A stretch of DNA of 64,000 nucleotides from Minisyncoccota bacterium (GTDB taxonomy: Bacteria > Patescibacteriota > Minisyncoccia > Phycocordibacterales > PALSA-1337), in contig JAQTPC010000003.1 of assembly GCA_028713005.1 (NCBI GenBank), forward strand, positions 13,022-77,021. Direction: 5' to 3'. The position numbers were made by a program, and so were the translations under genes. The notes under the pieces were generated by a model. The model saw only the letters and a list, made by a program, of their open reading frames with translations, was not told the DNA's origin and searched no databases. Of the stretch, positions 398-14,364 are shown in pieces. Position 1 is the first letter of the stretch; each line of letters starts with the position of its first letter.

Positions 398-1822
398 TTA
401 GTTGTGTGCGTTTTTCATCACGTACTCAATCAACTCTTCAATCATCACTCTCTCCTGCTTGCCATTATCACGATCACGGACAGTCACTCCTGTACCCTTC
501 TCGATAGTATCAAAGTCGACAGTGACACAGTAAGGTGTACCAATCTCATCTTGGCGGCGATAGCGCTTGCCGATATTTCCATTATCATCAAAGGTAACAT
601 TTGGAATAACTTTCTTGAGCATCTTGTAAACATCTTCTGCTTTTTCTACGAGTACCGGCTTATTTTTAAGTAGTGGAAAGACCGCTACACGGTATGGTGC
701 AACTGAAGGAGCGAGTTTCAAAAATACACGCTTCTCTGTGACGCTTCCTCCTTCTTTCTCCTTGCTTCCTTCTTCCGCTCCCATTTCATCTTCCTGATAC
801 GCATCCACGAGCACAGCTAACACCGTTCTATCCAAACCAAATGAAGGTTCGATACAGTGAGGTATAAATCTTTCCTTTGACTCTTCATCAAAATATGACA
901 GATCCACTTTACTGAACTCAGAATGTTGTTTAAGGTCATAGTCTGTACGATATGCAAGACCATACAGCTCTTTTTTACCAAAAGGAAAATCAAATTCGAA
1001 ATCAATTGTGCGCTTTGAATAGAATGCGCGGTCAGCTTCAGCAACTTCTAGTTCGTGCACTTTTTTCTGCGTCAAACCGATATCCTGCGTAAAAGCCAAT
1101 ACCTCAGTGCGGAAATGCTCAAAGGTCTTTTCCCAGTCTTTTGGATTGACGAAATACTCGATCTCCATCTGTTCAAACTCACGTGCACGGAAAAGAAAGT
1201 CGCGTGGCGCGATCTCATTACGAAATGCTTTGCCGATCTGGGCCATACCAAATGAAAGCTTTGGGTGGAAAGTGTCGAGGATATTTTTGAAATTAACAAA
1301 CATACCCTGTGCGGTCTCAGGACGAAGATATGAGATAGATGAACCGTCCTCGGTTGCACCAATGTTTGTCTTGAACATCATATTGAACTGACGCACAGGG
1401 CCGAGTGCATTGCCATCAGGACTCTTGAGACCCTTTTCTTTTATCTTGGCATCCATATCTGCAAGAGTCATACCCTTTACATCAACACCGGCATCTTCGA
1501 GGAGGTGGTCAGCACGAAAACGTCTTTTGGTCTTTATATCTTCAACGAGCGGGTCCGCAAAACCTGCCACGTGTCCACTCGCCTCCCACGTGCGCGGATT
1601 CATGAGGAGCGCTGCATCGACGCCATACATATCGTCACGATCATCAACAAAACGCTTCCACCAAATCTTCTTTATATTATTTTTGAGCGCTACACCGAGA
1701 GGTCCATAATCCCATGTACCAGCGAGACCACCATAGATCTCTGAACCCTGAAAGATAAAACCACGTCTCTTGCAGAGAGAAATGAGCGATTCCATTATGT
1801 TATTCTCGGCTATTTTATTCAT
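398..1822 (-). CDS. glyQS: Glycine--tRNA ligase (class II, dimeric GlyQS type)
   Basis: Full-length 474 aa; strong match to GlyRS N-terminal motif block (GSEIYGGLAGTWDYGPLG) and class II core. Confidence 0.9.
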   Translation of the reverse strand: MNKIAENNIMESLISLCKRRGFIFQGSEIYGGLAGTWDYGPLGVALKNNIKKIWWKRFVDDRDDMYGVDAALLMNPRTWEASGHVAGFADPLVEDIKTKRRFRADHLLEDAGVDVKGMTLADMDAKIKEKGLKSPDGNALGPVRQFNMMFKTNIGATEDGSSISYLRPETAQGMFVNFKNILDTFHPKLSFGMAQIGKAFRNEIAPRDFLFRAREFEQMEIEYFVNPKDWEKTFEHFRTEVLAFTQDIGLTQKKVHELEVAEADRAFYSKRTIDFEFDFPFGKKELYGLAYRTDYDLKQHSEFSKVDLSYFDEESKERFIPHCIEPSFGLDRTVLAVLVDAYQEDEMGAEEGSKEKEGGSVTEKRVFLKLAPSVAPYRVAVFPLLKNKPVLVEKAEDVYKMLKKVIPNVTFDDNGNIGKRYRRQDEIGTPYCVTVDFDTIEKGTGVTVRDRDNGKQERVMIEELIEYVMKNAHN

Positions 1823-1877
1823 ACGAACATTCTATACGAAAGGAGCCGAACTTGAAAGTCCGGCTTCTGGTGACCTA

Positions 1878-3821
1878 TTACTGAACGACAGTTTCGTCTC
1901 CCCCCTTATATGCTGGATCTGTACTAAAGCTTGAAGTCAGATAACCTTGCTCACTTGTTAGAGAAGACTGGGTATAATCATCGGTTGCAGTCAGAGTAGA
2001 CGGATTGACGAGAGTTGGTGCAGTAGAAACTTGAGTAATACTTGGTGTAAAGGCTATCTGGAATGCCACTTCACGACGCTTCGATGAATTTGCAGAGTAT
2101 GCACTGATCTGCCCTACATTCCACGTTATAGAACCAGTATTTTGATCATACGTCACACCTTCAGTTGATGGAGATACATTTCCAAGCCATGTCACGTATG
2201 GTGGCAAAGTTGCAGTGACTTGTGCACCACTGACCGAACTGGTCGTATTGCCGATAGACCACAAGACTGTGTAGGTTGTTTTTTGTTCTGCCTTTGGTGG
2301 TATTGGTCCCGTATTGGTAAATGCTCCAGTTGAGCGAACTACCCTGCCTGAAAGAGCGATGCTCGAAGCCACTTTTATTGTACGGCTTGCAGCTGAAGTT
2401 ATGCTACCAGAAGCACCTGATTCTTGAGTACGATCAGCTGACACGCTCGCTGACAGAGATACGTTCGGATTGACGACTTGATTACCTGATGAGTTCGATG
2501 TGTTTGTTGGTGTTATTGAGAATGAGATAGAACCACTTTCTCCTGCAGGGATAGATGCGAGCTCAGGATTTGTCTGTTGATTCCAGATGATCTGATTGCG
2601 CGCAGAATCAAAATAGCCAAGATCAGGCTGGATCTTTGTCTTATCGTACGCAGTACCAGAGAGATTGACTGCAATGACTGCATTTGAAACTGCCACTGAA
2701 AGATTGTTGAACCAGGTGATCGTTACGCGAGCTGGTGAACCAAAGTGCCCAACAAAATCTGTTGAAGATGTGTCATTATCAATGCCGAGCTGCAGACTAA
2801 CGAATGATTTTTCTATCGTGATATTTTGACTGACGAGCCCATATTGAGTGCCAATGACCGCACCATTTGCAGCACTTCGCGCACCGACAGCAAAGTGGAA
2901 TACGCGGGTATCAGAATTTTCACCTTGTAGCTTTCCATGAATGACGACTGAACGCTCAGCACCTGGTGGTATATCACCGATCTTCCATGTGGCATTATCA
3001 GACAGCGGTGGGATGTTCGCGGAGATAAAGCTATAACCAAATGGATACTGCCCTTTCAAGACAACACTCTTGAGTACGTCTTGAGAATTTGATTTGAGTT
3101 TTACTGTCATATCGAACTCTTGACCAGAAGCGATGCTGCTAAACGAAGAAGCAGTGAGAGTGATTGGTGACGAATTAATAAGCACTTCGTAACTTGCGAC
3201 TTTGGTGAAAAGAGCCGTGGAACCTTTTACCTTATATGTCAGCGTTGCAGTGATAGATTTTTGAGTATTCTCTTCCCCAAAGATGATTGCCGATACATTC
3301 GTCGAAGTTGAATAACCTGTTGGTATATCGCCGAGATATTGATCGAGCGACGTAAGTGTCTGTGTAGAATCATGTGCATCGGTCGCACCTGCCGGAAATG
3401 ACACATTCATATCTACCAGCTGAAGATCGATATTATTATTGTTGGTAACCTTGATACCAAAAGAAACTGGCTGACCACCCGGTATCGATACGGGACCAGT
3501 GATAGTGACATCGATATTATTTCCTGATATCAGATTTGAACCATTTAAAAAGAGATACAGACCGATACTAACTGCAATGATGCAGAATATGCCGGAGCCG
3601 ATGAGAAATTTAGTGAAAAATGACATTGAATGATCTTCGTATTGTGTATTGAGCTTTGGAGCTTCTTCTAGCGTTTTATCTGGTTCAGCCCATTCTGACT
3701 TTACCTCAGTATTCATATCTGAAAAACGAAGCTTGCGGCGCGTACGTACTTCTGGTGCACCGCGAGAGTACAGTGACTTCTTCAACTCTTCTATGCGATT
3801 TTGATCTTCTGAGGGAGGCAT
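1878..3821 (-). CDS. Membrane-anchored surface protein with repeated beta-sandwich (DUF11/CARDB-like) modules, Thr/Ser/Asn-rich
   Basis: 647 aa; ~65 aa cytoplasmic N-term, single TM (IGSGIFCIIAVSIGLYLFL), long low-complexity extracellular region. Confidence 0.55.
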   Translation of the reverse strand: MPPSEDQNRIEELKKSLYSRGAPEVRTRRKLRFSDMNTEVKSEWAEPDKTLEEAPKLNTQYEDHSMSFFTKFLIGSGIFCIIAVSIGLYLFLNGSNLISGNNIDVTITGPVSIPGGQPVSFGIKVTNNNNIDLQLVDMNVSFPAGATDAHDSTQTLTSLDQYLGDIPTGYSTSTNVSAIIFGEENTQKSITATLTYKVKGSTALFTKVASYEVLINSSPITLTASSFSSIASGQEFDMTVKLKSNSQDVLKSVVLKGQYPFGYSFISANIPPLSDNATWKIGDIPPGAERSVVIHGKLQGENSDTRVFHFAVGARSAANGAVIGTQYGLVSQNITIEKSFVSLQLGIDNDTSSTDFVGHFGSPARVTITWFNNLSVAVSNAVIAVNLSGTAYDKTKIQPDLGYFDSARNQIIWNQQTNPELASIPAGESGSISFSITPTNTSNSSGNQVVNPNVSLSASVSADRTQESGASGSITSAASRTIKVASSIALSGRVVRSTGAFTNTGPIPPKAEQKTTYTVLWSIGNTTSSVSGAQVTATLPPYVTWLGNVSPSTEGVTYDQNTGSITWNVGQISAYSANSSKRREVAFQIAFTPSITQVSTAPTLVNPSTLTATDDYTQSSLTSEQGYLTSSFSTDPAYKGGDETVVQ

Positions 3822-3850
3822 TTGTATTATTGTACCATTTATTTTTATCC

Positions 3851-4492
3851 TTACAGATGCGATTCACGGAGTGCCCTGTTGATATGCTGGTTCATGAGAG
3901 TTCGCTGTTGACCCAAAAGAGTCAGACGATCGAGGCTTATAGCATCGGATTCAATATCTTCCTTGAGTGCAGAAATACTTGCCACATAACCCAGACGGTG
4001 AAGGATACGCGTAACTATTAAGGATTCGAGGGTTTTGAATGCTTCACTTCCGAGGGTAGGCCATGAATTAATAAAATCAAATAACGAATCGAGTGCAATG
4101 AATAATTCTGGATGAGGTTCTTCTCCTTGTAGTAAACGATTAAGAAGCAATGCTATGCGCGCAATAAGTTCTTGATTTTGGTCTGCCAATTTCACCTCTT
4201 GTAGCTTGTCCCCTGTCTGCGCAAGCAGGCTTGTATCTTGCACCTTGAGTTCCTGCGCATTAGTTAGTCGCCAAAACTCTTTACCGCTGACAAATGAAAA
4301 AACGCCGAGAGAATAATCTTGAATAAAGGGGCGTAATTTTGATTTTTCGAAACGGATGCCTTGTGCCGTAGCACGGATGAGTCCGAGGTCTTTGGTAAAT
4401 ATAGATAGCAGCTTCCCTGCTTCACCAGATGGCCGTGAGCTTACGATAAATCCGGGAGTTGTGTGAATGGCGTACATAGGTAAATCAACCAA
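3851..4492 (-). CDS. recO: DNA repair protein RecO-like
   Basis: 213 aa; N-terminal OB-fold pattern (IVSSRPSGEAGKLLSIFTKDLGLIRATAQGIR) typical of RecO; no zinc finger. Confidence 0.65.
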   Translation of the reverse strand: MVDLPMYAIHTTPGFIVSSRPSGEAGKLLSIFTKDLGLIRATAQGIRFEKSKLRPFIQDYSLGVFSFVSGKEFWRLTNAQELKVQDTSLLAQTGDKLQEVKLADQNQELIARIALLLNRLLQGEEPHPELFIALDSLFDFINSWPTLGSEAFKTLESLIVTRILHRLGYVASISALKEDIESDAISLDRLTLLGQQRTLMNQHINRALRESHL

Positions 4493-4510
4493 TGATCAAT
4501 AGCGCAATGT

Positions 4511-7500
4511 TCAATTCAATCCGAGCACATCGCCAAAACTGATACTGGTCACATTCGTCAGCTTCTTCAATTCATCACTGTATTTTTCAACTATGGCACG
4601 CTCAGCTTCGGTAACTACCAATGAAGTTTTATCGCTGACTGACAAGCCCTTTTCTTTTCTCATATCTTGCACCTTACGGAGAAGTTCACGGAACTCACCT
4701 TCTGCTTTGAGCTCGGGGGTGATAACTGTATCTAACACTACAGTAAATGTAGGATCGTTTTGGTCGACACTGTTCTCCAATACTATCTCTTTTACATTGA
4801 GCTCATCCATAAGCACAACCTTGAGTTCATCCCAGCGAGGGATAGGATTATTTCTATGTTTGATAGTAAGTTTTTGCAGTGGCTGACGAACATTAACCTT
4901 GCCCTCAGTTCTCTTCATGAGACCGGCTGTAGTAAATGACTGAACAACCTTCATGCCTGACAAAACATCCTCATCTACTTTTCCTGCCTTTGGCCAACTT
5001 TCAAGATGTACACTCTCTAGTTCTCCGCCAACCTCTTGGTAAATATACTCTGCAAAGAAAGGTGTAAATGGTGCCATGACTTTTGCCAATGTAATAAGTA
5101 CATATTTTGTCGTCGCTAGAGCAGCTTCTTTGTCTGCCATATCATCACCCTTAAAACGATCACGCGAACGACGGAGATACCACTGTGAAAGATCTGCGAT
5201 AAATTCACGTATCTCACGCGTAGGTTCGAGGAAAACATAGTTATCCATATTACTCGTCACATTTTCGATCAATTGATTCAAGCGCGCCAAAATCCACTGG
5301 TCAATTATATTTTGAGATGTTCCTTGTGATTTTCCTATCTCCAGGCTCCTATCTCCAGACTCCCTGTTCTCATACGTCTTATAAAATGTCGTCACATTCG
5401 CAACCAAGTTAAATACTTTCTTCACAATCTCATCAACAGTTTTTTCTTCAAAGTTCTTTGACTCACCTGGCTGGTTGACCGAATACATCCAAAAACGCAA
5501 TGCATCAGCGCCGTACTTATCCATCATATTCCATGGATTGATGACATTGCCGAGCGACTTGGACATCTTTTTTCCTTCTCCATCGAGAATATGTCCGAGA
5601 CAGATCACATTTTTATACGCCTTACCTTTACCCATAAGAACGCCGATAGCATGTAATGTATAGAACCAGCCACGAGTCTGGTCAATCGCTTCTGAGATGA
5701 AGTCAGCAGGATAAGCAAGTTCCTGCTTCTTTGAAAACAGCTTTGCGATTACTCCTTTCTCCTTTCTTCCTGCTTCTTCTTTTCCGAATGGATAGTGATC
5801 TTGGGCAAACGGCATACCACCTGAATCAAACCAGACGTCCATGACTTCTTTTGCACGAACCATATTTCCACCGCATGAACATGAAAGCTTCACTTCATCG
5901 ATAAAGGGTTTATGGAGATCGAGCTCATATTCAGTATTGTGAGGGACAATCTTGAGATTCACTTCGCGAACACCTGCCTTTTCAATATAATTATTTTTTT
6001 CGTATTCAGCAGTCTGTTCCCTGTCCCAACCTTCCGCAGCAGCAATGAGCATCATAGCTGGACTGCCATGAGTAACGATTAAAATCTTTTTGCCAGAATA
6101 TTTTGATTCGACATCATATAAGAAATCACCAACACGCGTTTTCACATCTGCGTGATTTTCTCCACCTTTTGGCCGAGCAACAAAACGACTCTGGTTCAAT
6201 GGAAATACTTTTAACAATTGTTCGAGCGTCATACCATCCCATTCACCGAGCTCGATCTCTCTGATACGGTTGTCGGTTACTAGCTGATCATCAGTGAGAC
6301 CCAGTGCTTTTTGTACAATCTTTGCTGTCTCTTGAGTACGAATAAATGGCGAAGCAATGATGAGGTCGATACCGAGCTTCTTTATACCCTCAGCTGCACG
6401 CGCAACTTTATCTTTACCATGTTCGGTCAAATGGTTTTCAAGTGTTATATCACTATTCAGTATCTCTTTTACATTACATTCGGCTTCACCGTGGCGCATT
6501 ACGTGATATGTATTCTTTGATGACAGGGCGATATCATCGATAGAACCGACAACTTTTCTTTTGTTACAGGTATCACAATTCCACACTGGCAATGGTGTTC
6601 CCCAGTAACGTTCACGTGAGATAGCCCAGTCTTTGACATCTTTGAGCCATTCGCCAAAACGACCTTCCTTGATGTACTCAGGTTCCCAATGGATACCTTC
6701 ATTTTCTTTGAGTAATTTGTCGCGCAGATCAGACATGCGGATATACCACGAATCGCGGGCAAAATAGATGAGCGGAGTTTTACAACGCCAGCAATGAGGA
6801 TATGTATGCTTGATATTCTCCTGTGCAAAGAAAAGTCCTTTTTGTTTCAGATAATTAACAATATCAACATCGAGAGTTGGCTTACCATTTTCATCTTTTT
6901 CTTTGACGAATCTACCCTCGAGAAAAGCGGTGCCCTTTTTGAAGGTTCCATCATCGTTGACCAAGTGATATTTAGGTAGATTGTTCTTTGTGCCGAGCTC
7001 AAAGTCATCTTGACCGTACATTGGTGCAATGTGCACGATGCCAGTACCATCAGCGGTTGTGACAAAATCGCCGGCAAATACTTTGAAGGCATTTGAGATT
7101 TTATCTTTTTCTGCACCAGTGACAGCGTCTTTGAGATATGGAAAGAGTGGTTCGTAGGTGAGGCCAACGAGGTCAGAGCCTTTTACTGTTTCGATCATTT
7201 CATACGTAAGGTCTTTCAACGCTGACAATCTTTCTTTCGCCAAAATCACATAGGTAATTACTCCGTTGCCAATCGGCACGAGAGGATTCTCGCTTCCTTT
7301 TGCAGAGGCAAAACCGCGAGAACTCTCGTTGCCTCTGTCAACGGCTGACGTATCATTTAATTGGTTGACCTTAACTTTCACATACTCAATATCCTTCCCT
7401 ACAGCCAAAGCCACATTCCCCGGAAGCGTCCAGGGTGTCGTCGTCCACGCAAGTATATATGTCGCATCATCCGCAACTGTATCACCAATCTTTTGTCCTT

Positions 7501-8158
7501 TGGTAACTTTGAACTTCACATACAGCGACAAATCCTTCACCTCCTGATATCCCTGTGCCAATTCGTGTGAAGAAAGTCCAGTACCACAGCGTGGACACCA
7601 CGGAACTATCTTGTAATCCTTATAGAGTAAACCTTTCTCATCGACAGTCTTGATGATATTCCACACTGACTCTATATATTGCGGCTTATAGGTGATATAC
7701 GGATTTTTGAGATCAACCCAATATCCCATGCGGTTGGTGAAATCTTCCCATTCATGCACATAAGTCCAGACGCTGTCTTTACATTTTTGATTGAATGCAG
7801 CTATGCCATATGACTCGATTTCCTTCTTCGACTTGAGACCAAGCTCCTTTTCTACTTGGAGCTCAACGGGCAAACCGTGGGTATCCCATCCACCCTTTCT
7901 GCGTACATGAAAACCTTGCATCGTCTTGTAGCGAGGAATGGCATCCTTGAATGCCCGAGCTTCGAGATGATGTATACCGGGACGACCGTTGGCAGTTGGT
8001 GGACCTTCAAAGAATACGAACTCACCTTTTGGCGACTCTTTATCGAGAGACTTCTGAAAAACATCTTTCTCTTTCCAAAATGCCAAAACATTCTCCTCGC
8101 GAAGTGCGTGTGGAGATTTTGGTGATTGGTCTTTTTGGGTATTTGCTATTTCGGCCAT
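4511..8158 (-). CDS. ileS: Isoleucine--tRNA ligase carrying an inserted histidine-phosphatase (PGAM-like) domain
   Basis: 1215 aa; HIGH-type motif (PPTANGRPGIHH), CP1 editing motif (WTTTPWTLPGN), KMSKS (KMSKSLGNVI), D.WFDSG; extra ~200 aa RHGE...THG domain between the CDTC and CSCGG cysteine pairs. Confidence 0.9.
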   Translation of the reverse strand: MAEIANTQKDQSPKSPHALREENVLAFWKEKDVFQKSLDKESPKGEFVFFEGPPTANGRPGIHHLEARAFKDAIPRYKTMQGFHVRRKGGWDTHGLPVELQVEKELGLKSKKEIESYGIAAFNQKCKDSVWTYVHEWEDFTNRMGYWVDLKNPYITYKPQYIESVWNIIKTVDEKGLLYKDYKIVPWCPRCGTGLSSHELAQGYQEVKDLSLYVKFKVTKGQKIGDTVADDATYILAWTTTPWTLPGNVALAVGKDIEYVKVKVNQLNDTSAVDRGNESSRGFASAKGSENPLVPIGNGVITYVILAKERLSALKDLTYEMIETVKGSDLVGLTYEPLFPYLKDAVTGAEKDKISNAFKVFAGDFVTTADGTGIVHIAPMYGQDDFELGTKNNLPKYHLVNDDGTFKKGTAFLEGRFVKEKDENGKPTLDVDIVNYLKQKGLFFAQENIKHTYPHCWRCKTPLIYFARDSWYIRMSDLRDKLLKENEGIHWEPEYIKEGRFGEWLKDVKDWAISRERYWGTPLPVWNCDTCNKRKVVGSIDDIALSSKNTYHVMRHGEAECNVKEILNSDITLENHLTEHGKDKVARAAEGIKKLGIDLIIASPFIRTQETAKIVQKALGLTDDQLVTDNRIREIELGEWDGMTLEQLLKVFPLNQSRFVARPKGGENHADVKTRVGDFLYDVESKYSGKKILIVTHGSPAMMLIAAAEGWDREQTAEYEKNNYIEKAGVREVNLKIVPHNTEYELDLHKPFIDEVKLSCSCGGNMVRAKEVMDVWFDSGGMPFAQDHYPFGKEEAGRKEKGVIAKLFSKKQELAYPADFISEAIDQTRGWFYTLHAIGVLMGKGKAYKNVICLGHILDGEGKKMSKSLGNVINPWNMMDKYGADALRFWMYSVNQPGESKNFEEKTVDEIVKKVFNLVANVTTFYKTYENRESGDRSLEIGKSQGTSQNIIDQWILARLNQLIENVTSNMDNYVFLEPTREIREFIADLSQWYLRRSRDRFKGDDMADKEAALATTKYVLITLAKVMAPFTPFFAEYIYQEVGGELESVHLESWPKAGKVDEDVLSGMKVVQSFTTAGLMKRTEGKVNVRQPLQKLTIKHRNNPIPRWDELKVVLMDELNVKEIVLENSVDQNDPTFTVVLDTVITPELKAEGEFRELLRKVQDMRKEKGLSVSDKTSLVVTEAERAIVEKYSDELKKLTNVTSISFGDVLGLN
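5924..6540 (-). other. Histidine phosphatase / phosphoglycerate-mutase-family domain embedded in-frame within ileS (aa ~540-745)
   Basis: Catalytic RHGE motif (codons at 6488-6499), ASPFIRTQETA, second His motif LIVTHGSP; flanked by IleRS sequence on both sides. Confidence 0.75.
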
Positions 8159-8219
8159 GAAATTAATTTAATAGGGTTATTTTACCATAGGTCTGACCTC
8201 TCCGAGGTTGAACCTCTAA

Positions 8220-9983
8220 CTACATCCTCTTTGGAATTTTGATACCGAGGATATGAAGACCTTCACTCATTGCTTCAGCAAAACTTTTTGTTAAAAGCAC
8301 ACGATATGGAGACAATGGTTCATTCACATCAACGATTGTATTGCTTGCATAGAAACTATTGAAAGCACTTGCAAGGTTGATGAGATAGTTTGCAATGAGT
8401 TGTGGTGCATATTCACCTGAAGCGCGCTCGACTATATCTGGGAATCTTACAATGAGTTTTTCGAGCAGGCCGACTTTCTCTGGCAAAACCACTTTTGATA
8501 GATTGATCAACGTACGAATCTCCCCTTCTTTACCGAGATCCAATTCACCTTTTGCTTTTTCAATGATTGAATTCGCACGGACAACAGAATACTGGAGATA
8601 TGGACCAGAGTCACCTTCAAATGAGATGGACTTGGCTGAATCAAAGATAACATCACTACCGACTGCCTGACGAAGGATGGTGTACTTGATGGCAGCGATA
8701 GCGATCATATCTGATAGTTCTTCCACTTCTTCTGGTGTGAACTTACGGTCAGCGATTCTTTCAATAACAAGCTTTTTCATATCATCGATGAGTGTCTCAG
8801 CAGTGATGACATTGCCCGTACGTGAAGACATCTTGCCGGATGCAAAACGCAACATACCGTGTCCAATATGCTTTGTTTTCTTGCCTACATTTTCATCGAT
8901 AAGCGTGAGCGCCTTGGCGATGACCTTGAAATATTCATTTTGCTCACTTGCTGTAACAACGATCGATGTATCAGTTTCAGGATATTTTTTGAACTTAGTA
9001 ACATTTAACCCCATCTCTTTTGCTTCATACGTTGGTAGGCCATGGGAGTTGATGAATACGCGGGTATGAAGACCATGATCCTCCCCTTTGAATACAACTG
9101 CACCGTCGCTTTCAGTAAACACATTTTTTTTTAAAAATTCCTTGACGATATCGAGACCAGCTGGAGCCATCTCGCTCTCATATATATATCCATCAAAATG
9201 CGTGCCGAGACGCTTGTACAACAATTCAAAATGCTCCAAGCTCCAATTCCTTCCCTTTTCATAGAGAGCATTTATGGCAGGACTCGACTTTTCGTAGAGG
9301 ATCTTGTTCAAAGAATCAATATCATCTTTTACAGTGATACCTGCACCGCTCAATTCATCTGACTCATACATGCGTGTACCTTCAACATACATCTTGCCGA
9401 GGAATGCAGTTTTTTCTTGGATCGGTGCTGAGTCACTAGGTATTTCACTTTCATGACGTTTCATCGCCCAGATAGACTTTGCGATATGGAGGCCAATATC
9501 TGACGGGTAACAAAGACGAGTAACCTTTGCACCTCCAGACTCAATCAAACGTGAAAGCGATTCACCAATTGCATTAGCCATGAGATGCCCGATATGAAAT
9601 GCCTTGAAAATATTTGGGTCAGTGTATTCAATGAGAATATTTTTGCGTTTTATGTTTCCTTCTAACTTCTCACTTCCAACCCCCAACTTCTCTTTTATGA
9701 TCTGCTCCGCAAATACACTATCTTTCACTTTGAAGTTAATAAACCCAGGACCAGCCACACTGACAGAATCAATGCTTTCTGGCATATCTTTTTTGAATTC
9801 TTCAATGATCTTGTCAGCAAGTGCCTTTGGTGCCATCTTGAGCACCTTTGCATGGGCCATTGCGATATTTGTCGAATAATCACCGTGTTCTGGATTTTCT
9901 GGATACTCCAAAACCACAGAATCAACCTCAATTCCGAGACTTTGAGCGGTTTTTATGAGATGGCTTATAAGCTTTGATTTCAT
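8220..9983 (-). CDS. argS: Arginine--tRNA ligase
   Basis: 587 aa; ArgRS N-terminal domain, HIGH-region (FHIGHL), C-terminal anticodon-binding domain ending ...KIPKRM. Confidence 0.9.
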   Translation of the reverse strand: MKSKLISHLIKTAQSLGIEVDSVVLEYPENPEHGDYSTNIAMAHAKVLKMAPKALADKIIEEFKKDMPESIDSVSVAGPGFINFKVKDSVFAEQIIKEKLGVGSEKLEGNIKRKNILIEYTDPNIFKAFHIGHLMANAIGESLSRLIESGGAKVTRLCYPSDIGLHIAKSIWAMKRHESEIPSDSAPIQEKTAFLGKMYVEGTRMYESDELSGAGITVKDDIDSLNKILYEKSSPAINALYEKGRNWSLEHFELLYKRLGTHFDGYIYESEMAPAGLDIVKEFLKKNVFTESDGAVVFKGEDHGLHTRVFINSHGLPTYEAKEMGLNVTKFKKYPETDTSIVVTASEQNEYFKVIAKALTLIDENVGKKTKHIGHGMLRFASGKMSSRTGNVITAETLIDDMKKLVIERIADRKFTPEEVEELSDMIAIAAIKYTILRQAVGSDVIFDSAKSISFEGDSGPYLQYSVVRANSIIEKAKGELDLGKEGEIRTLINLSKVVLPEKVGLLEKLIVRFPDIVERASGEYAPQLIANYLINLASAFNSFYASNTIVDVNEPLSPYRVLLTKSFAEAMSEGLHILGIKIPKRM

Positions 9984-10023
9984 AAGGATATTGTAGCAGA
10001 AAACCCCATATCTGCACGAATAT

Positions 10024-10052
10024 TTGACAAAGAAAGTAAAGTCGGTTACACT
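10024..10052 (+). promoter_or_regulatory. Sigma70-like promoter (TTGACA-17-TACACT) driving the orphan ncRNA
   Basis: TTGACA at 10024-10029, 17-nt spacer, TACACT at 10047-10052. Confidence 0.5.
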
Positions 10053-10058
10053 ACTATT

Positions 10059-10326
10059 GGTTAAGTTGACCCTCGGGGATTGAGTTCTTACCCCTCGGAG
10101 ACGCGACGAATCGCTCCTTAAAACATCCTATTCGATACGATTGCACCGCAATCGGTTCCTCCTTCGACAATGTGAGGGTCCTTGCCTCCACCGCCCAACG
10201 GAAGGGCGTCGTCATCATTGCATGGATGTAAATACTTGTCCCTTTGTGTCGCTGGCTTTCTCCTTGCCAGACACAAAGGGACACCGCCCGCTTTAGTGCC
10301 ATCTCTTTTGAGAGGCACTTTTTTAT
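10059..10326 (+). ncRNA. Structured non-coding RNA of unknown class (~268 nt) with its own promoter and intrinsic terminator, antisense to flanking genes
   Basis: No plausible CDS; perfect 13-bp hairpin gtccctttgtgtc/gacacaaagggac (10238-10283), several shorter hairpins, terminator at 3' end; conserved motifs of RNase P, SRP, tmRNA or 6S could not be recognised by eye. Confidence 0.4.
10296..10326 (+). terminator. Intrinsic terminator (gtgcc-a-tctc tttt gaga-g-ggcac + T6)
   Basis: 9-bp GC-rich stem with one mismatch followed by TTTTTTATTT. Confidence 0.6.
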
Positions 10327-10353
10327 TTACTTGAAATACACCCTCTACGCAAT

Positions 10354-11625
10354 CTATTTTTTGCCAGTATGAGCTGTTGCACCACTCACCTTTCGAAGCG
10401 TCTCGTCGATTTTTTTAGCGATCATTTTAAAATCTTTCTCTTTTCTTCCCCGAGTAGTCTCTGCTGCTGTGCCAATACGAATACCCGATGGGTCTGCAGG
10501 CGGACGAACATCAAATGGAATAGCATTTTTATTTACGATGATACCTGATTTTTCGAGAGCATCGCTTGCATCTTTTCCTGAAACACCACCTGCTCCCTTT
10601 TCATTCTTCTTGCCATCATTCCATGTATCGATGAGGATAAGGTGCGAGTCGGTGCCTCCGGAGATGAGTCTCCATCCACGAGCATGAAGCTCCGTGGCGA
10701 GAACAGTCGCATTCTTTACTACTTGATCAGCGTATTTTTTAAAGTTTAGACTTGAAGCTTCCTTGAGAGCAACTGCAACTGCGGCGATCTGGTTCTCATG
10801 TGGACCACCCTGAAGACCTGGGAATACTGCACGATCAATCTTTTTATCGAGCTCGCGAGCATCGCGCTTTACAAAAATGAGAGCTGAGCGTGGACCACGA
10901 AGTGTCTTGTGTGTAGTCGTTGTGACGATGTCTGCATACGGAAATGGCGCTGGATAAGCTCCACCAGCAACGAGACCGGCGATATGTGACATATCAACCA
11001 TAAGGAGTGCCTCAGCTGCATCAGCGATCTCGCGCATCATAGCCCAGTCGATACGACGTGGGTATGCAGTAAATCCAGCCACGATAATGGCGGGCTTTTC
11101 TTTGATGGCCAACTCACGAAGTAGATCGTAATTGATCATCTCAGTGGTCGCATCCAGACCATATGGCACTTGTATCCAAAATTTACCAGTCGCTGAAACT
11201 TTGTGTCCGTGAGTGAGGTGACCTCCATGATCGAGAGACATACCCATGATCTTTGAAGGAACGAGGACCTCAGCATTGTCTGCACCAGGCAAAACTATCT
11301 TCTTTGGAGGAATGAGTGCTGTATAGACAGCTAGATTTGCAGGTGAACCAGAGAGAGCTTGTACATTAACGTGCCACTCAGTTGGGTCGAGTTTAAAAAG
11401 CTTGAGGGCGCGCTCGATACAGACAGATTCGATCTTATCAACTATTTCATTGCCACCATAGTAACGTTTGCCAGGGTACCCTTCTGCATATTTATTAGTC
11501 AGTTCTGAACCCAATGCTTCGAGCACGTCTTTTGAAACGTAGTTCTCTGAGGCGATGAGATTGACAACTTTCTTTTGACGTTTTTTTTCTGTCTCTATGA
11601 GTTTTTTTATTTGAGTGTCTTTCAT
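10354..11625 (-). CDS. glyA: Serine hydroxymethyltransferase
   Basis: 423 aa; SHMT hallmark N-terminus (ASENYVSKDVLEALGSELTNKYAEGYPGKRYYGG), PLP-lysine region. Confidence 0.95.
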   Translation of the reverse strand: MKDTQIKKLIETEKKRQKKVVNLIASENYVSKDVLEALGSELTNKYAEGYPGKRYYGGNEIVDKIESVCIERALKLFKLDPTEWHVNVQALSGSPANLAVYTALIPPKKIVLPGADNAEVLVPSKIMGMSLDHGGHLTHGHKVSATGKFWIQVPYGLDATTEMINYDLLRELAIKEKPAIIVAGFTAYPRRIDWAMMREIADAAEALLMVDMSHIAGLVAGGAYPAPFPYADIVTTTTHKTLRGPRSALIFVKRDARELDKKIDRAVFPGLQGGPHENQIAAVAVALKEASSLNFKKYADQVVKNATVLATELHARGWRLISGGTDSHLILIDTWNDGKKNEKGAGGVSGKDASDALEKSGIIVNKNAIPFDVRPPADPSGIRIGTAAETTRGRKEKDFKMIAKKIDETLRKVSGATAHTGKK

Positions 11626-11710
11626 GCATAGAATATACCATGCAGATATATGAAAAAGAAAATGGAGACAGGTACAAGATTATATGTTGAAAAATTAACA
11701 CCCGTACACA

Positions 11711-11751
11711 GCTAATAAAAAGGTCCGGCGCGCTGTTTTTCGCGTCGGACC
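11711..11751 (-). terminator. Intrinsic terminator on minus strand (11-bp stem ggtccgGcgcg/cgcgTcggacc + U-tract) downstream of tmk and upstream of glyA
   Basis: GC-rich hairpin followed (minus strand) by TTTTTATTAG. Confidence 0.6.
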
Positions 11752-11804
11752 TAGGGGCCCACATTCATCGGAGGAACGACTGCAGTGGGAAATTAATAGA
11801 ACTT

Positions 11805-11833
11805 GTACTCTAAAAGTATACGCCTCTTATTGC
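11805..11833 (-). promoter_or_regulatory. Sigma70-like promoter on minus strand (TTGACA-17-TATACT) located between tmk stop and the terminator
   Basis: rc of 11828-11833 = TTGACA; rc of 11805-11810 = TATACT; 17-nt spacer. Confidence 0.45.
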
Positions 11834-11859
11834 TATATGTCAATACCATATTTCTTACC

Positions 11860-12501
11860 CTATTTAATACCCAACTGTTGCCTCATTTGAATGAGAAAAT
11901 CTTTCTTCACTGTTTCGAGAGGTCGGTTAGCATCGATGATGATACATGGTGTGCCGAGAGCTTTTACTTTCTCAAAGAATTTCAAATAGCCTTTGCGAAC
12001 ATTCTGATGAAAAGTGATTTCTCTATCATCGAAGTGGTCGTACCCAATATCAAAAGACTGATTGCGTCCATGCGCTCGTTTCAATCCTTCTTCAGGATCA
12101 ACATCAACAAAGACATATATATCCGGAGTGACCATGAGCTTACTCCTCATGCTCCAAAAGAGATCTTCGAGGAGGCTCGACTGGCTTGATATCTGATATG
12201 CATATGATGAGGCGTCAAAACGATCAGCGATAACCGGCACCCCTTTCTTGAGGCTTGGAATGATAACATTTGCCACATTGTCGAAACGCGCCGCGAACAT
12301 GAGGCAGAGAGTCGTTTCTGGTGGTGCATCTTTGGCCAGAGGATTTTTGATGGCTGCTGTACGGATGAGCTCAGCGTAGGGCGAACCACCTGGCTCACGA
12401 GTCGTCATGATCAGATCACCCAAGCTTTCTTTGAGTATACGGATAAGGGTAGATTTTCCTGAACCTTCCCCTCCCTCTATGACGATAAATTGTGGTTTCA
12501 T
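11860..12501 (-). CDS. tmk: Thymidylate kinase (dTMP kinase)
   Basis: 213 aa; P-loop FIVIEGGEGSGKST, DRF/DR motif (IADRFDASSYAYQ). Confidence 0.9.
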   Translation of the reverse strand: MKPQFIVIEGGEGSGKSTLIRILKESLGDLIMTTREPGGSPYAELIRTAAIKNPLAKDAPPETTLCLMFAARFDNVANVIIPSLKKGVPVIADRFDASSYAYQISSQSSLLEDLFWSMRSKLMVTPDIYVFVDVDPEEGLKRAHGRNQSFDIGYDHFDDREITFHQNVRKGYLKFFEKVKALGTPCIIIDANRPLETVKKDFLIQMRQQLGIK

Positions 12502-12516
12502 TTCTGTATTTAAAAA

Positions 12517-12939
12517 TTATTTTCCCGTACTACCAAACCCCTTCTCACCTCTCGTACTATCACTTAATTCATCAACCTCAATCACATCCGGCACTTCGAC
12601 TTTCTGAATGAGCATCTGTGACACTTTGTGACCTGCTTCAAAAATATATTCGACATCACTGAGATTGATCATGCCAATCAACACTTCACCTCTATAGCCA
12701 GCATCAATCACTCCCCCGAGAAGTTTGATGCTGTGCTTGATAGCTATGCCGCTCTTGTCCCAAAAGAGTCCGACACATCCATGTGGAATCTCCATCGCTA
12801 TACCTGTTTTGATAGCGGCATGCTCGCCGGGCTTTATGACAGTTTTTTCCAGGACAAAAAAATCCATGCCTGCATCGCCTGGATGAGCATACGCAGGTAT
12901 CTTGGCGTCTGGATGGAGTTTTTTAAACTTAATTTGCAT
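12517..12939 (-). CDS. dut: dUTP diphosphatase (dUTPase)
   Basis: 140 aa; dUTPase motifs AGMDF, GVIDAGYRGEV, RGEKGFGSTG. Confidence 0.9.
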   Translation of the reverse strand: MQIKFKKLHPDAKIPAYAHPGDAGMDFFVLEKTVIKPGEHAAIKTGIAMEIPHGCVGLFWDKSGIAIKHSIKLLGGVIDAGYRGEVLIGMINLSDVEYIFEAGHKVSQMLIQKVEVPDVIEVDELSDSTRGEKGFGSTGK

Positions 12940-12954
12940 AAAATTTGACGCGCA

Positions 12955-13428
12955 TTATCTCTTGAACTGTTCTGTAGCCCCTTCAACCAAGTATACATCC
13001 TTGATGCCTGCCGCAATCATAGCGTCCCAACACGGCTTGCAACACCACCAATGACCCCAGTGATACAGATCAGCTCCCGTTATGTCGCCATACTTTTTTT
13101 GGGCGTCTTTTATCGCTTGCGGCTCAGCGTGCATATGAGATGAGGCACACCCAGGACATAGATAATATTTGGTGCCCGATTTTATATGAAATAATTTTCT
13201 GATACAAAATTTATTATGTAAGTTATGCATCCATTGCTTCCTCAGAAGGGACTGATTCGCCCCTACCCCGAGTATTTTTCCGTCTTTCACGATCACCGCG
13301 CCAGTTGGTTGCTTACTGTCTGTCGAATATTGGAACGTGATCTTCTTCGTCTCTGCCATGAAAGGATTCTCAATAGGCACATATATGAATTTTCTCCCTT
13401 CGGGGAGATATGGGTAGTGTTCATTCAT
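12955..13428 (-). CDS. Deoxycytidylate (dCMP) deaminase, CMP/dCMP-deaminase zinc-binding family
   Basis: 157 aa; HMHAE...PC..C zinc-binding motif (HMHAEPQAI, CKPCWDAM). Confidence 0.8.
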   Translation of the reverse strand: MNEHYPYLPEGRKFIYVPIENPFMAETKKITFQYSTDSKQPTGAVIVKDGKILGVGANQSLLRKQWMHNLHNKFCIRKLFHIKSGTKYYLCPGCASSHMHAEPQAIKDAQKKYGDITGADLYHWGHWWCCKPCWDAMIAAGIKDVYLVEGATEQFKR

Positions 13429-13455
13429 CTCTCGATTATATATAATAAAACCATT

Positions 13456-14316
13456 ATGACCAAATTCGATGAAATATATCAGGACATGGTGCGAAAGATA
13501 ATGCTAGAGGGCATAGATGAGATCAACAAGAGCAAACAAGCTGGCAGTGAAAGAGCGACCTATATTACTCGAGCGATTCCTGGTATGCACTTTACCACTG
13601 ATATTGAAAAAGATGGCTTCCCTCTCCTCACTCTCAGGAAAATCCCCGTAAAGGCACCTGTAGCCGAACAGGCATGGTTCATCATGGGGTCGAGAAAGCC
13701 AGAAGATTTTCTCCGCGAATACACAAAGATCTGGGATGCATTCACTAACCCTGGCGACGTCGTCACCGTTGCGTATGGATATCGCTGGCGCAAGCACTTT
13801 GGTCGTGATCAACTCAAACTCCTCATCGACCTTCTCCGAGCCGAGCCTGGTTCACGTCATGGGGTTGTCGTCACGTGGGATCCTGCCCAAGACGGACTAT
13901 CTCTCCAAAAGAAAAAGAATGTTCCTTGCCCCTATACATTCACGGTAAATATTATTGGCGGTCGTTTGCATCTCCATAATATTGTACGTTCAAATGATGT
14001 TATCCTCGGTGTTCCATTCGATGTATTTGGTTTTGCACTTCTCCAATGCCTTCTCGCTCAAGAGCTTGGTGTTCGACCAGGAATATATAGCCACTCTATA
14101 TCAAATGCTCATATATATGACACTCATTTTGAAGCTGCAAAAACTCTGATGGAGAGAAAAAATGAACATCAAAAGATCATCCTTGAGTTACCACAAAATT
14201 CGTTCAAAGAGATAGAAAATAGAAATCGTGGAGTTGTTGATGCAATCATTGAAAATATTGACAAGCAGTATCACCCATCAGAAGCCATTACGGGCATCAA
14301 AATCGTCGCCTACTAA
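13456..14316 (+). CDS. thyA: Thymidylate synthase ThyA-family protein (nucleophile motif PCP instead of canonical PCH)
   Basis: 287 aa from ATG 13456 (table ORF 13225 is an N-terminal over-extension); ThyA motif block VPCPYTFTVN...RSNDVILGVPFDVFGFALLQCLLAQ. Confidence 0.75.
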   Translation: MTKFDEIYQDMVRKIMLEGIDEINKSKQAGSERATYITRAIPGMHFTTDIEKDGFPLLTLRKIPVKAPVAEQAWFIMGSRKPEDFLREYTKIWDAFTNPGDVVTVAYGYRWRKHFGRDQLKLLIDLLRAEPGSRHGVVVTWDPAQDGLSLQKKKNVPCPYTFTVNIIGGRLHLHNIVRSNDVILGVPFDVFGFALLQCLLAQELGVRPGIYSHSISNAHIYDTHFEAAKTLMERKNEHQKIILELPQNSFKEIENRNRGVVDAIIENIDKQYHPSEAITGIKIVAY

Positions 14317-14364
14317 TTCGTCTCCGATTATCTTATAATTCAGAGATACTTTTAACTTACCTTC

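What the first reader, a model, noticed from the sequence alone, without database searches (positions are those of the whole stretch)
5924..6540. Histidine-phosphatase (PGAM-type) domain inserted in-frame inside isoleucyl-tRNA synthetase
The ileS product (1215 aa) is ~200-250 aa longer than typical IleRS. The extra segment (aa ~540-745) has the diagnostic catalytic signature of the histidine phosphatase / phosphoglycerate mutase superfamily (RHGE near its start, ASPFIRTQETA, and a second His in LIVTHGSP). It sits between two Cys pairs (WNCDTC ... SCSCGG) that in ordinary IleRS form a compact zinc knuckle with a ~20-aa spacer. IleRS sequence (CP1 editing motifs upstream, DVWFDSG and KMSKS downstream) continues in the same frame on both sides. 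This therefore reads as a domain insertion into an essential enzyme, not a fusion or frameshift artefact, and no intein motifs are visible. A phosphatase embedded in an aaRS could act on a nucleotide such as Ap4A or a 3'-phosphate, or be a degenerate structural insert. I do not know it as a described architecture.
Basis: partly seen in the sequence, partly recalled or inferred. Interest (0 to 1): 0.7.

Follow-up and report, generated by a model that had tools for sequence, protein, structure and literature searches.

The report
Active phosphatase domain nested inside IleRS
An essential translation enzyme (isoleucyl-tRNA synthetase) of a Patescibacteria bacterium carries a complete, apparently active histidine-phosphatase domain spliced into a surface loop of its catalytic core, an arrangement shared by hundreds of relatives, sometimes in 2-4 copies, which I could not find described in the literature.

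Summary
ORF 4511-8158 (-) encodes a 1215-aa type-2 IleRS (TIGR00392, 912 bits). About 193 aa (aa 544-736) replace a 2-3-residue turn between the CxxC and CxC halves of the CP-region zinc knuckle. The insert is a His_Phos_1 domain (E=5e-35), modelled at pLDDT 92.6. Its nearest folds are the ~200-aa small-molecule phosphatases GpgP, PspA and PhoE, not dPGM.

It is neither an artefact nor degenerate. All 120 best full-length homologues (57-100% identity, independent Patescibacteria assemblies) carry it. R555, H556, R607, E634 and H697 are 99-100% invariant, and pN/pS is about 0.11, close to the host's.

New here:
- The module sits at four or more different loops of IleRS and in up to four copies, every copy catalytically intact.
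- It survives loss of the zinc cysteines.
- It is also fused to TsaC, though Patescibacteria TsaC is a promiscuous fusion partner.
- Embedded and stand-alone copies share the same conserved positions and a neutral charge.

Best reading: a bifunctional IleRS plus an autonomous phosphomonoesterase (about 0.5). Coupling to tRNA or adenylate chemistry remains possible (about 0.3). The substrate is unknown. Ten full-text searches found no description, so I rate it a new variant of a known kind.

The parts
4511..8158 (-). ileS ORF, 1215 aa: type-2 IleRS carrying the nested phosphatase domain
   Evidence: ORF. TIGR00392 912 bits against cutoff 621. Pfam tRNA-synt_1, Anticodon_1 and DUF5915. An identical protein, P0121, is in NCBI on an 84-kb contig.
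5951..6529 (-). Inserted histidine-phosphatase (HP) module, aa 544-736 (193 aa)
   Evidence: Boundaries come from the alignment to PDB 8c8w: query 543->737 = chain 474->477. AF2 model of insert plus flanks: pLDDT 92.6, pTM 0.88. Foldseek best matches are GpgP, PspA and PhoE, E about 1e-13, TMt about 0.75.
5999..6502 (-). Pfam His_Phos_1 (PF00300) match, aa 553-720
   Evidence: E=1.8e-33 in the whole protein; 121 bits for the insert alone against a gathering cutoff of 21.7.
6485..6496 (-). RHGE motif: R555, H556 (predicted phospho-acceptor nucleophile), G557
   Evidence: Position. R and H are 100% and G 99% conserved in 120 orthologues. R and H are present in 135/135 embedded copies with a residue at that column.
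6323..6352 (-). SPFIRTQETA: second catalytic Arg (R607)
   Evidence: R607 is 100% conserved and present in 138/138 embedded copies.
6239..6259 (-). EIELGEW: E634, predicted general acid
   Evidence: 100% conserved in 120 orthologues. E in 128 and D in 8 of 138 embedded copies. Aligns with the conserved 'rEI.lG.WeG' segment of PhoE (1h2e/1ebb) in the alignment.
6059..6076 (-). VTHGSP: second catalytic His (H697)
   Evidence: 100% conserved. Present in 133/134 embedded copies with a residue at that column.
6566..6583 (-). WNCDTC: first half of the CP-region zinc knuckle (C528, C531), upstream flank of the insert
   Evidence: The cysteines are 99% conserved in close orthologues but lost in several distant HP-bearing IleRS.
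5867..5884 (-). SCSCGG: second half of the zinc knuckle (C760, C762), downstream flank of the insert
7967..7978 (-). G-I-H-H: altered class-I 'HIGH' signature (GXHH type) of the host IleRS
   Evidence: The best PDB hit is the GVHH mutant 8c8w. The GXHH motif confers mupirocin hyper-resistance in IleRS2 according to PMC10485003.
5555..5569 (-). KMSKS loop of the host IleRS, intact
7427..7447 (-). WTTTPWT editing-domain (CP1) threonine-rich motif, intact
   Evidence: aligned to 8c8w.

Best explanation
The gene encodes a bifunctional protein.

SHOWN: It is a complete type-2 IleRS. The GXHH-type HIGH motif, KMSKS, the CP1 editing motifs, the anticodon-binding domain and the type-2 C-terminal domain are all present. 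A 193-aa histidine-phosphatase (branch 1) domain is nested in the hairpin of the CP-region zinc knuckle, just before the second half of the Rossmann fold. The domain is predicted to fold confidently even when modelled with only the knuckle flanks. It keeps every catalytic residue of the superfamily, is under purifying selection like the host, and is ancient and lineage-wide in Patescibacteria.

INFERRED mechanism: It works as a phosphomonoesterase through the standard superfamily chemistry. The phosphoryl group of the substrate is held by R555, R607, H697 and N562 and is transferred to H556. E634 protonates the leaving group and then activates water to release Pi. It is a phosphatase of the small ~200-aa PhoE/PspA/GpgP/CobC type, not a phosphoglycerate mutase.

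INFERRED physiology (the step I commit to, with only moderate confidence): The module does the same job as its stand-alone ~190-aa paralogues. It dephosphorylates a small phosphorylated metabolite or nucleotide and rides on IleRS as an autonomous passenger, gaining co-expression and retention in a minimal genome that readily fuses small housekeeping enzymes to tRNA enzymes. It does not take part in aminoacylation.
For: Domain identity.

Clean nesting.

Catalytic residues: R555, H556, G557, N562, R607, E634, E667, R675 and H697 are 99-100% invariant in 120 orthologues, while neighbouring positions vary. The same holds over 138 embedded copies.

Purifying selection: pN/pS is 0.086/0.758 for the insert and 0.056/0.627 for the host.

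Lineage-wide: 120/120 best full-length hits carry PF00300. Loci come from Paceibacterota, Parcubacteria, a Saccharibacteria-labelled MAG and Peribacteria.

Host intact.

Autonomy:
- Embedded and stand-alone copies share identical conserved positions with no embedded-specific residue, and net charge is about 0.
- The module persists when the zinc-knuckle cysteines are lost.
- It works from at least four different loops.
- Patescibacteria TsaC is fused to many unrelated small enzymes, including this HP, which shows a general fusion habit.
- The closest NCBIfam model is the phosphatase half of RnhC/Rv2228c. Its two domains are functionally dissociated in vivo (PMC7466739; bioRxiv 2022.11.09.515703).
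Against: - Among the 150 closest relatives of the insert, every large host but one is IleRS.
- The module was placed in, or moved to, four or more IleRS loops and amplified to 2-4 catalytically intact copies. Such exclusivity and dosage are not what a neutral passenger predicts.
- The one other host, TsaC, is, like IleRS, an adenylate-forming, tRNA-linked enzyme.
- HP and GNAT are each found on both IleRS and TsaC.
- No substrate is identified. No curated equivalog cutoff is reached.
- Inter-domain geometry could not be examined, because the tools return no coordinates.
Confidence: 0.5

Rival explanations
1. Coupled third active site. The nested phosphatase acts on something produced or handled by IleRS. 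Candidates are a by-product shared by adenylate-forming enzymes (PPi or AMP), a 2'/3'-phosphorylated tRNA CCA end so that damaged tRNA-Ile can be recharged, or a phosphorylated inhibitor or analogue aimed at IleRS.
For: - IleRS is almost the only host among the 150 closest relatives.
- There are at least four insertion sites, all in or at the edge of the catalytic body and none in the editing or C-terminal domains.
- Copy number reaches 4, with all catalytic residues kept.
- The only other host found is TsaC, which also makes an acyl-adenylate plus PPi for tRNA modification.
- TsaC is alternatively fused to a 2H cyclic phosphodiesterase and to NUDIX, which are RNA-end or nucleotide housecleaning enzymes.
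- The window clade also carries the GXHH motif linked to resistance against a natural IleRS inhibitor, showing that this enzyme is under antibiotic pressure.
Against: - No embedded-specific conserved residue and no basic surface charge relative to stand-alone paralogues.
- TsaC fusions are promiscuous: Ogt, TruB, MPG, GNAT.
- The RnhC precedent shows dissociated functions.
- Stand-alone relatives are not next to ileS or tRNA genes.
- Nearest structures are small-metabolite phosphatases.
Confidence: 0.3
2. Structural or regulatory module. The domain serves mainly to dimerise or stabilise IleRS (many HP enzymes are dimers), or to sense a phospho-metabolite and tune IleRS, with catalysis secondary.
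For: - Tandem 2xHP stand-alone proteins and tandem copies inside IleRS fit a dimer-forming unit.
- The module replaces a zinc knuckle whose cysteines can then be lost, as if it took over a structural role.
Against: The complete catalytic set is invariant across the 120 closest orthologues, nearly so across 138 more divergent embedded copies, and complete in every duplicated copy of the multi-copy proteins. This is not needed for a scaffold. Conservation is the same as in stand-alone enzymes.
Confidence: 0.08
3. Cryptic glycolytic enzyme. The insert is the cofactor-dependent phosphoglycerate mutase that appears to be missing from some Parcubacteria.
For: [quoted passage not shown] The insert belongs to the same superfamily. 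The archaeal dPGM model NF038349 gives 91 bits.
Against: - All dPGM models fall far below their curated cutoffs: NF038349 91 against 225, TIGR01258 21 against 81.7, NF010713 16 against 305.
- The module is 193 aa with no C-terminal tail, since it runs straight back into IleRS.
- The nearest folds are phosphatases, with dPGMs ranking lower.
- 2-4 copies are hard to explain for a mutase.
Confidence: 0.07
4. Artefact or selfish element: chimeric assembly, frameshift fusion, or an intein-like mobile insertion.
For: None beyond the unusual length. One relative (P0300) does carry an IS200-like Y1 transposase domain in frame.
Against: - The ORF is continuous and composition is uniform.
- There are no intein or endonuclease domains.
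- An identical protein is in NCBI, and more than 120 orthologues from independent assemblies share the junctions.
- Copies are only about 35% identical to one another, so they are old, not recently mobile.
- Purifying selection acts on the insert.
Confidence: 0.02

Closest known systems
PhoE (B. stearothermophilus YhfR, 1h2e/1ebb), PspA phosphoserine phosphatase (4ij5), GpgP Rv2419c (4pz9/6s2q), CobC (6nru): small branch-1 histidine phosphatases
   Same: About 200-aa fold, RHG...R...E...H catalytic set and a cap of similar length. Best sequence matches (E about 3e-15) and best structural matches (E about 1e-13, TMt about 0.75).
   Different: Those enzymes are stand-alone and share only 20-25% identity with the insert. 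None of the curated family cutoffs is reached. Here the domain is nested inside another enzyme.
RnhC / Rv2228c / MSMEG_4305: RNase HI fused to a CobC-like acid phosphatase
   Same: A branch-1 HP module joined covalently to a nucleic-acid enzyme. It is the best NCBIfam hit of the insert (NF005567, 98 bits over the phosphatase half only). It is a precedent for functionally independent domains.
   Different: RnhC is an end-to-end fusion, not a nested insertion. It is confined to actinobacteria, and its partner is RNase H, not an aaRS.
Type-2 IleRS with GXHH signature (P. megaterium IleRS2 structures 8c8u/8c8v/8c8w; PMC10485003)
   Same: This is the host enzyme. There is 775-bit similarity over the whole IleRS body, the same domain order and the same altered HIGH motif.
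   Different: The reference has a 2-3-residue turn where the window has 193 aa. No phosphatase is mentioned in that paper, or in the 96,219-sequence IleRS survey.
IleRS with a GNAT domain (NCBIfam NF040702 'ileS_w_GNAT')
   Same: An IleRS carrying an additional catalytic domain. A relative here (P0300) has both HP and GNAT, with the GNAT at one of the loops that hosts HP elsewhere.
   Different: The extra domain is different. The window protein scores 314 against a cutoff of 1999, so it is not a member.
CP1 editing domain and other connective-peptide insertions of class Ia synthetases
   Same: A hydrolytic domain nested in the Rossmann fold of IleRS, ValRS and LeuRS. This is the evolutionary precedent that these loops tolerate whole domains (established knowledge; CP nomenclature in PMC11685878).
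   Different: CP1 is universal and acts on the enzyme's own mis-acylated product. For the HP insert, no link to the IleRS reaction is shown.

Membership tests
Histidine phosphatase superfamily, branch 1 (Pfam PF00300) | Score above the Pfam gathering threshold | tested here: met
   121.3 bits for the insert and 116.3 in the whole protein, against a cutoff of 21.7.
Histidine phosphatase superfamily, branch 1 (Pfam PF00300) | RHG motif with nucleophilic His, plus second Arg, second His and an acidic proton donor | tested here: met
   R555, H556, G557, R607, E634 and H697 are present. They are 99-100% conserved in 120 orthologues and in 138 embedded copies.
Histidine phosphatase superfamily, branch 1 (Pfam PF00300) | Alpha/beta fold of dPGM/PhoE type | tested here: met
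   AF2 pLDDT 92.6. Foldseek against PDB gives E=4e-14, TMt 0.75, rmsd 2.6 A to 6s2q, and 321 hits at E<=1e-3; all 50 listed are HP-superfamily members.
Histidine phosphatase superfamily, branch 1 (Pfam PF00300) | Phosphatase (or mutase) activity via a phospho-His intermediate | not testable with these tools
   Needs an enzyme assay.
Cofactor-dependent phosphoglycerate mutase (dPGM) | Curated dPGM HMM cutoffs | tested here: not met
   NF038349 91 against 225; TIGR01258 21 against 81.7; NF010713 16 against 305; NF002339 46 against 316.
Cofactor-dependent phosphoglycerate mutase (dPGM) | Length of about 230-250 aa with a flexible C-terminal tail that closes the active site | tested here: not met
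   The module is 193 aa and returns directly into IleRS at aa 737. dPGM structures rank below the ~200-aa phosphatases.
Named small HP phosphatases (PspA NF045917, CobC TIGR03162, RnhC NF005567, SixA TIGR00249) | Equivalog cutoff | tested here: not met
   Scores 76 against 350; 85 against 163; 98 against 326; 43 against 74.5. This is a distinct subfamily shared with ~190-aa stand-alone proteins, at least one from a Patescibacteria MAG.
Isoleucyl-tRNA synthetase (TIGR00392), type 2 | Equivalog cutoff, class-I signature motifs, CP1 editing motifs and type-2 C-terminal domain | tested here: met
   912 bits against a cutoff of 621. GIHH (GXHH variant), KMSKS, WTTTPWT and GTGIVHIAP are present. Anticodon_1 and DUF5915 match. 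The best PDB relatives are IleRS2.
Intein / homing-endonuclease insertion | Hint/intein splicing blocks or an endonuclease domain; sporadic distribution | tested here: not met
   No such Pfam family at E<=0.01. The insert is present in 120/120 closest homologues.
IleRS with GNAT domain (NF040702) | Model cutoff | tested here: not met
   314 bits against a cutoff of 1999. No GNAT Pfam hit in the window protein.

The most novel reading that the evidence does not exclude
The nested histidine phosphatase is a genuine third catalytic site of an aminoacyl-tRNA synthetase, alongside synthesis and editing. It would be coupled to the enzyme's own chemistry, for instance by healing 2'/3'-phosphorylated tRNA-Ile ends, by removing PPi or AMP at the source, or by destroying a phosphorylated IleRS inhibitor. 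That would explain why this one module has been placed in four or more loops of IleRS, amplified to up to four active copies, and also fused to the adenylate-forming tRNA-modification enzyme TsaC.
Probability: 0.2. Interest if true: 0.85.

Novelty: new variant of a known kind. Interest (0 to 1): 0.6.

Why it matters
Aminoacyl-tRNA synthetases are among the best-studied enzymes, and their domain additions usually reveal new biology, such as editing, signalling or resistance. Here a catalytically intact phosphatase is built into the catalytic core of an essential synthetase across a large part of the Patescibacteria (CPR), with variable site and copy number.

If the phosphatase is coupled to IleRS chemistry, it would be a new class of synthetase-associated activity.

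If it is an autonomous passenger, it is a clear and large natural data set on two points. One is how minimal genomes nest housekeeping enzymes inside essential proteins. The other is which loops of a class-Ia synthetase tolerate whole domains, which is useful for aaRS engineering.

It also shows that recent large IleRS surveys built on IleRS-specific domain models make no mention of this architecture. Metabolic reconstructions of CPR genomes may likewise overlook enzymes hidden inside other genes.

Tried and rejected
1. I corrected them to 5924-6541.
2. The first homologue search with insert plus flanks returned only fragments under 470 aa. I repeated it with the full-length protein.
4. Gene neighbourhoods of 'stand-alone' relatives gave no link. 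P0047 sits among secA and mur genes. P0046 sits among unrelated genes. P0035 turned out to be a fragment of a UGA-recoded HP-IleRS, not a stand-alone gene.
5. Neighbour-joining and identity analysis of HP copies: copies are only about 35% identical to everything, so duplication versus repeated capture could not be resolved. The exception is that copy 2 of the Peribacteria-type tandem forms a group.
6. The AFDB50 fold search with the full-length model was not available.
7. Inter-domain geometry, meaning the distance from H556 to the synthetic or editing site or to tRNA, could not be examined because the structure tool returns no coordinates or PAE.
8. The ArgRS check of UGA meaning in L014 was uninformative, with a single UGA.
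9. Looked for a second HP or a second IleRS in the window and found none.
10. Ten literature searches found no description.
11. Rejected readings: intein or mobile element, assembly chimera, degenerate insert, dPGM.
Full report
OBSERVATION. Window 4511..8158 (minus strand) is one uninterrupted ORF of 1215 aa. It is an isoleucyl-tRNA synthetase by the curated equivalog model (TIGR00392, 912 bits against a cutoff of 621). Pfam finds tRNA-synt_1, Anticodon_1 and the type-2 C-terminal DUF5915. Inside it, Pfam His_Phos_1 (PF00300) matches aa 553-720 (E=1.8e-33). No intein or endonuclease family is detected, and base composition across the insert equals that of the rest of the gene.

BOUNDARIES AND HOST. 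The closest solved structures are the type-2 IleRS of Priestia megaterium (8c8w/8c8u/8c8v, E about 1e-230). The alignment is collinear except at two places. At the first, query 543->737 corresponds to chain 474->477. So 193 aa (aa 544-736, window 5951-6529) replace a 2-3-residue turn in the hairpin between the CxxC (C528, C531) and CxC (C760, C762) halves of a zinc knuckle in the connective-peptide region, just upstream of DVWFDSG. At the second, query 264-314 against chain 247-265 is a separate, low-complexity extra segment of about 33 aa. The ordinary Cys-to-Cys spacer is about 40 aa, not about 20. The host keeps KMSKS, the CP1 editing motifs and an altered HIGH motif, G-I-H-H.

NOT AN ARTEFACT, NOT DEGENERATE. 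An identical protein is in NCBI (a MAG labelled Candidatus Pacebacteria, 84-kb contig). All 120 best full-length homologues (57-86% identity, 1115-1242 aa, many on contigs of 100-850 kb from different sources) carry PF00133 and PF00300 together. In an alignment of these 120, R555, H556, G557, N562, R607, E634, E667, R675 and H697 are 99-100% invariant, while surrounding insert positions vary freely. Against the nearest relative (L001), pN/pS is 0.086/0.758 in the insert and 0.056/0.627 in the rest of the gene. Both are therefore under strong purifying selection. GTDB genomes with the insert include Paceibacterota and Parcubacteria MAGs and one labelled Saccharibacteria, each with a full-length 1115-1153-aa ORF. 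A two-copy form comes from Candidatus Peribacteria.

WHAT KIND OF PHOSPHATASE. No curated equivalog cutoff is reached. The best models are the phosphatase half of RnhC (98 against 326), archaeal dPGM (91 against 225), CobC (85 against 163) and PspA (76 against 350). By sequence, the nearest solved proteins are PspA (4ij5), PhoE (1h2e/1ebb) and GpgP (4pz9). An AlphaFold2 model of the insert plus knuckle flanks is very confident (pLDDT 92.6, pTM 0.88). Its best Foldseek matches are the same ~200-aa small-molecule phosphatases (6s2q, 4ij5, 1h2e, 4qih, 9mmh, 6nru; E about 1e-13, TMt about 0.75), with true mutases ranking lower. In a full-length model of the 86%-identical orthologue P0122 (pLDDT 81.8), the insert is the most confident region (block means 88-97). 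The module is thus a complete, compact PhoE/PspA/GpgP-like phosphomonoesterase domain. The mutase reading fails the curated cutoffs and the length and tail criterion.

WIDER ANATOMY (new). An exhaustive HMMER search with the 193-aa insert found 13,431 relatives, of which 1,147 have E<1e-10. I mapped IleRS and HP segments on the best 150 with HMMs built from the orthologue alignment and checked the odd ones with Pfam. About 100 are IleRS or IleRS fragments with HP at the same knuckle site. Some IleRS differ:
- Two tandem copies at that site: P0331, P0351 (1468 aa), P0367.
- A copy in the loop after DVWFDSG (window aa ~787-813): P0268, P0291.
- A copy between the catalytic body and the anticodon-binding helices (window aa ~933-951): P0286, P0291, P0268.
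- In P0251, one copy near window aa ~475-482 plus at least three tandem copies at the knuckle.
P0291 has six cluster members on contigs up to 1.06 Mb, so these forms are real. Every copy in these multi-copy proteins keeps R, H, R, E and H. Copies within one protein are only about 35% identical, so the arrangements are old. The insert persists in IleRS that have lost the knuckle cysteines (L014, P0248, P0303, P0360, P0362, P0286, P0351). P0300 additionally has an IS200-like Y1 transposase domain in frame in CP1 and a GNAT domain at the post-DVWFDSG loop.

CLUES TO FUNCTION. (a) Among the 150 closest relatives, the only non-IleRS host is P0312, a TsaC (Sua5/YciO/YrdC) domain fused to HP. That fusion recurs in four clusters at 52-65% identity, one of them labelled Patescibacteria. 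TsaC and IleRS both make an acyl-adenylate plus PPi and both serve tRNA function, which suggested a shared substrate.

(b) The same search shows that Patescibacteria TsaC is fused to many partners: Ogt in most hits, and also TruB, 2H cyclic phosphodiesterase, MPG glycosylase, GNAT and NUDIX. Fusion as such is therefore common and not necessarily mechanistic. HP and GNAT do each occur on both IleRS and TsaC.

(c) Embedded and stand-alone (~190-aa) copies have the same conserved columns, with no embedded-specific residue. Net charge is near zero (-0.6 against +1.4; the window copy is -4). There is thus no sign of a new specificity or an RNA-binding surface.

(d) Stand-alone relatives are not encoded near ileS or tRNA genes.

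(e) In the nearest named family, RnhC/MSMEG_4305, the RNase H and phosphatase domains are functionally dissociated in vivo (PMC7466739; bioRxiv 2022.11.09.515703).

(f) Jaffe et al. report PGM missing from some Parcubacteria clades (PMC7304191). This keeps a metabolic role conceivable, although the dPGM membership tests fail.

MECHANISM. Shown: a complete IleRS2 with a nested, confidently folded, selectively maintained HP domain bearing the full catalytic set.

Inferred from the established chemistry of the superfamily: the phosphoryl group is transferred to H556, held by R555, R607, H697 and N562. E634 acts as the acid and base, and the phospho-enzyme is hydrolysed. This makes it a phosphomonoesterase.

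Inferred physiology: most likely (about 0.5) an autonomous small-molecule phosphatase riding on IleRS. A coupled role remains a serious rival (about 0.3) because of the exclusivity for IleRS, the multiple sites and the multiple active copies. That role could be removal of PPi or AMP, healing of phosphorylated tRNA ends, or detoxification of an inhibitor. Purely structural or regulatory (about 0.08), dPGM (about 0.07) and artefact or mobile element (about 0.02) readings are less likely.

NOVELTY. The sequences are public and machine-annotated as 'class I tRNA ligase family protein', 'histidine phosphatase family protein, partial' or 'PhoE'. I found no description in ten full-text searches. The two recent IleRS evolution studies do not mention a phosphatase or Patescibacteria (PMC10485003; bioRxiv 10.64898/2026.02.03.703510). 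The latter annotated 96,219 IleRS with IleRS-specific domain models. Extra or nested domains in synthetases (CP1, GNAT-IleRS) and HP modules fused to other enzymes (RnhC) are known kinds. An HP domain nested in a synthetase core, at variable site and copy number, is a new variant. Interest 0.6: surprising to an aaRS specialist and directly testable, but the function is unresolved and a passenger role is at least as likely as a coupled one.

Noticed in passing
window 7967-7978 (-), aa 61-64: The class-I HIGH motif of this IleRS reads G-I-H-H (the swapped 'GXHH' form). In type-2 IleRS this form confers hyper-resistance to the natural antibiotic mupirocin (PMC10485003). Among HP-bearing IleRS, both GXHH and canonical HxGH forms occur.
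   Followed up: partly
window 7217-7369 (-), aa ~264-314: A second extra segment of about 33 aa sits at the start of the CP1/editing region. It is Ser/Gly/Asn-rich and low in complexity, and has no counterpart in 8c8w. Close orthologues are 35-60 aa shorter overall (1156-1180 aa against 1215), which would fit a shorter segment there, but I did not align this region. Function unknown.
   Followed up: no
window 5720-5800 (-), aa ~787-813: The Lys-rich loop after DVWFDSG (GKEEAGRKEKGVIAKLFSKKQE) is about 15 aa longer than in P. megaterium IleRS2. AF2 confidence is below 50 for a segment (residues 747-759) in about this region of the orthologue model. It is the same loop that hosts an HP domain (P0268, P0291) or a GNAT domain (P0300) in other IleRS.
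   Followed up: partly
L014 3480-6929 (NCBI GCA_964635125.1, contig CAZWMQ010000001.1, GC 29%): A relative with the same thyA-tmk-argS-ileS-recO gene order has an HP-IleRS interrupted by 12 in-frame UGA codons. Of these, 9-10 align with invariant Trp, and the ORFs end in TAA. This points to UGA=Trp, whereas recoded Patescibacteria are known to read UGA as Gly, and UGA=Trp is listed only for Mycoplasmatales, Entomoplasmatales and insect endosymbionts (PMC8629427). I did not establish the taxonomy of the assembly.
   Followed up: partly
P0300 (JGI metagenome, 1066 aa): This IleRS has an IS200-like Y1 transposase domain in frame inside the editing domain (aa 340-461), an HP domain at the knuckle site, and a GNAT acetyltransferase domain at the post-DVWFDSG loop. 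The ORF ends after the GNAT domain.
   Followed up: no
P0312, P0396-P0398 and P0399-P0512: Patescibacteria TsaC (threonylcarbamoyl-AMP synthase) is fused to a wide range of small enzymes: Ogt/MGMT (PF01035) in most hits, and also TruB, 2H cyclic phosphodiesterase, methylpurine glycosylase, GNAT, NUDIX and this HP subfamily.
   Followed up: partly
L014, P0248, P0303, P0360, P0362, P0286, P0351: Several HP-bearing IleRS have lost all or most of the four cysteines of the CP-region zinc knuckle that flanks the insert. The zinc site is therefore dispensable once the domain is there.
   Followed up: no
window 398-14997: ileS lies in a cluster with two other synthetase genes, a class-II one (398-1822) and argS (8220-9983). 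The cluster also holds recO, glyA and a complete dTMP-synthesis set: tmk, dut, dCMP deaminase, thyA, dcd. Part of this gene order is conserved in the distant relative L014.
   Followed up: partly
window 28461-32624 (-), 1878-3821 (-), 34592-36745 (-): Large, probably surface proteins typical of episymbiotic Patescibacteria: a 1387-aa ORF with a C-terminal dockerin and an MG2 domain, a 647-aa DUF11 protein, and a 717-aa ORF with no Pfam match.
   Followed up: no
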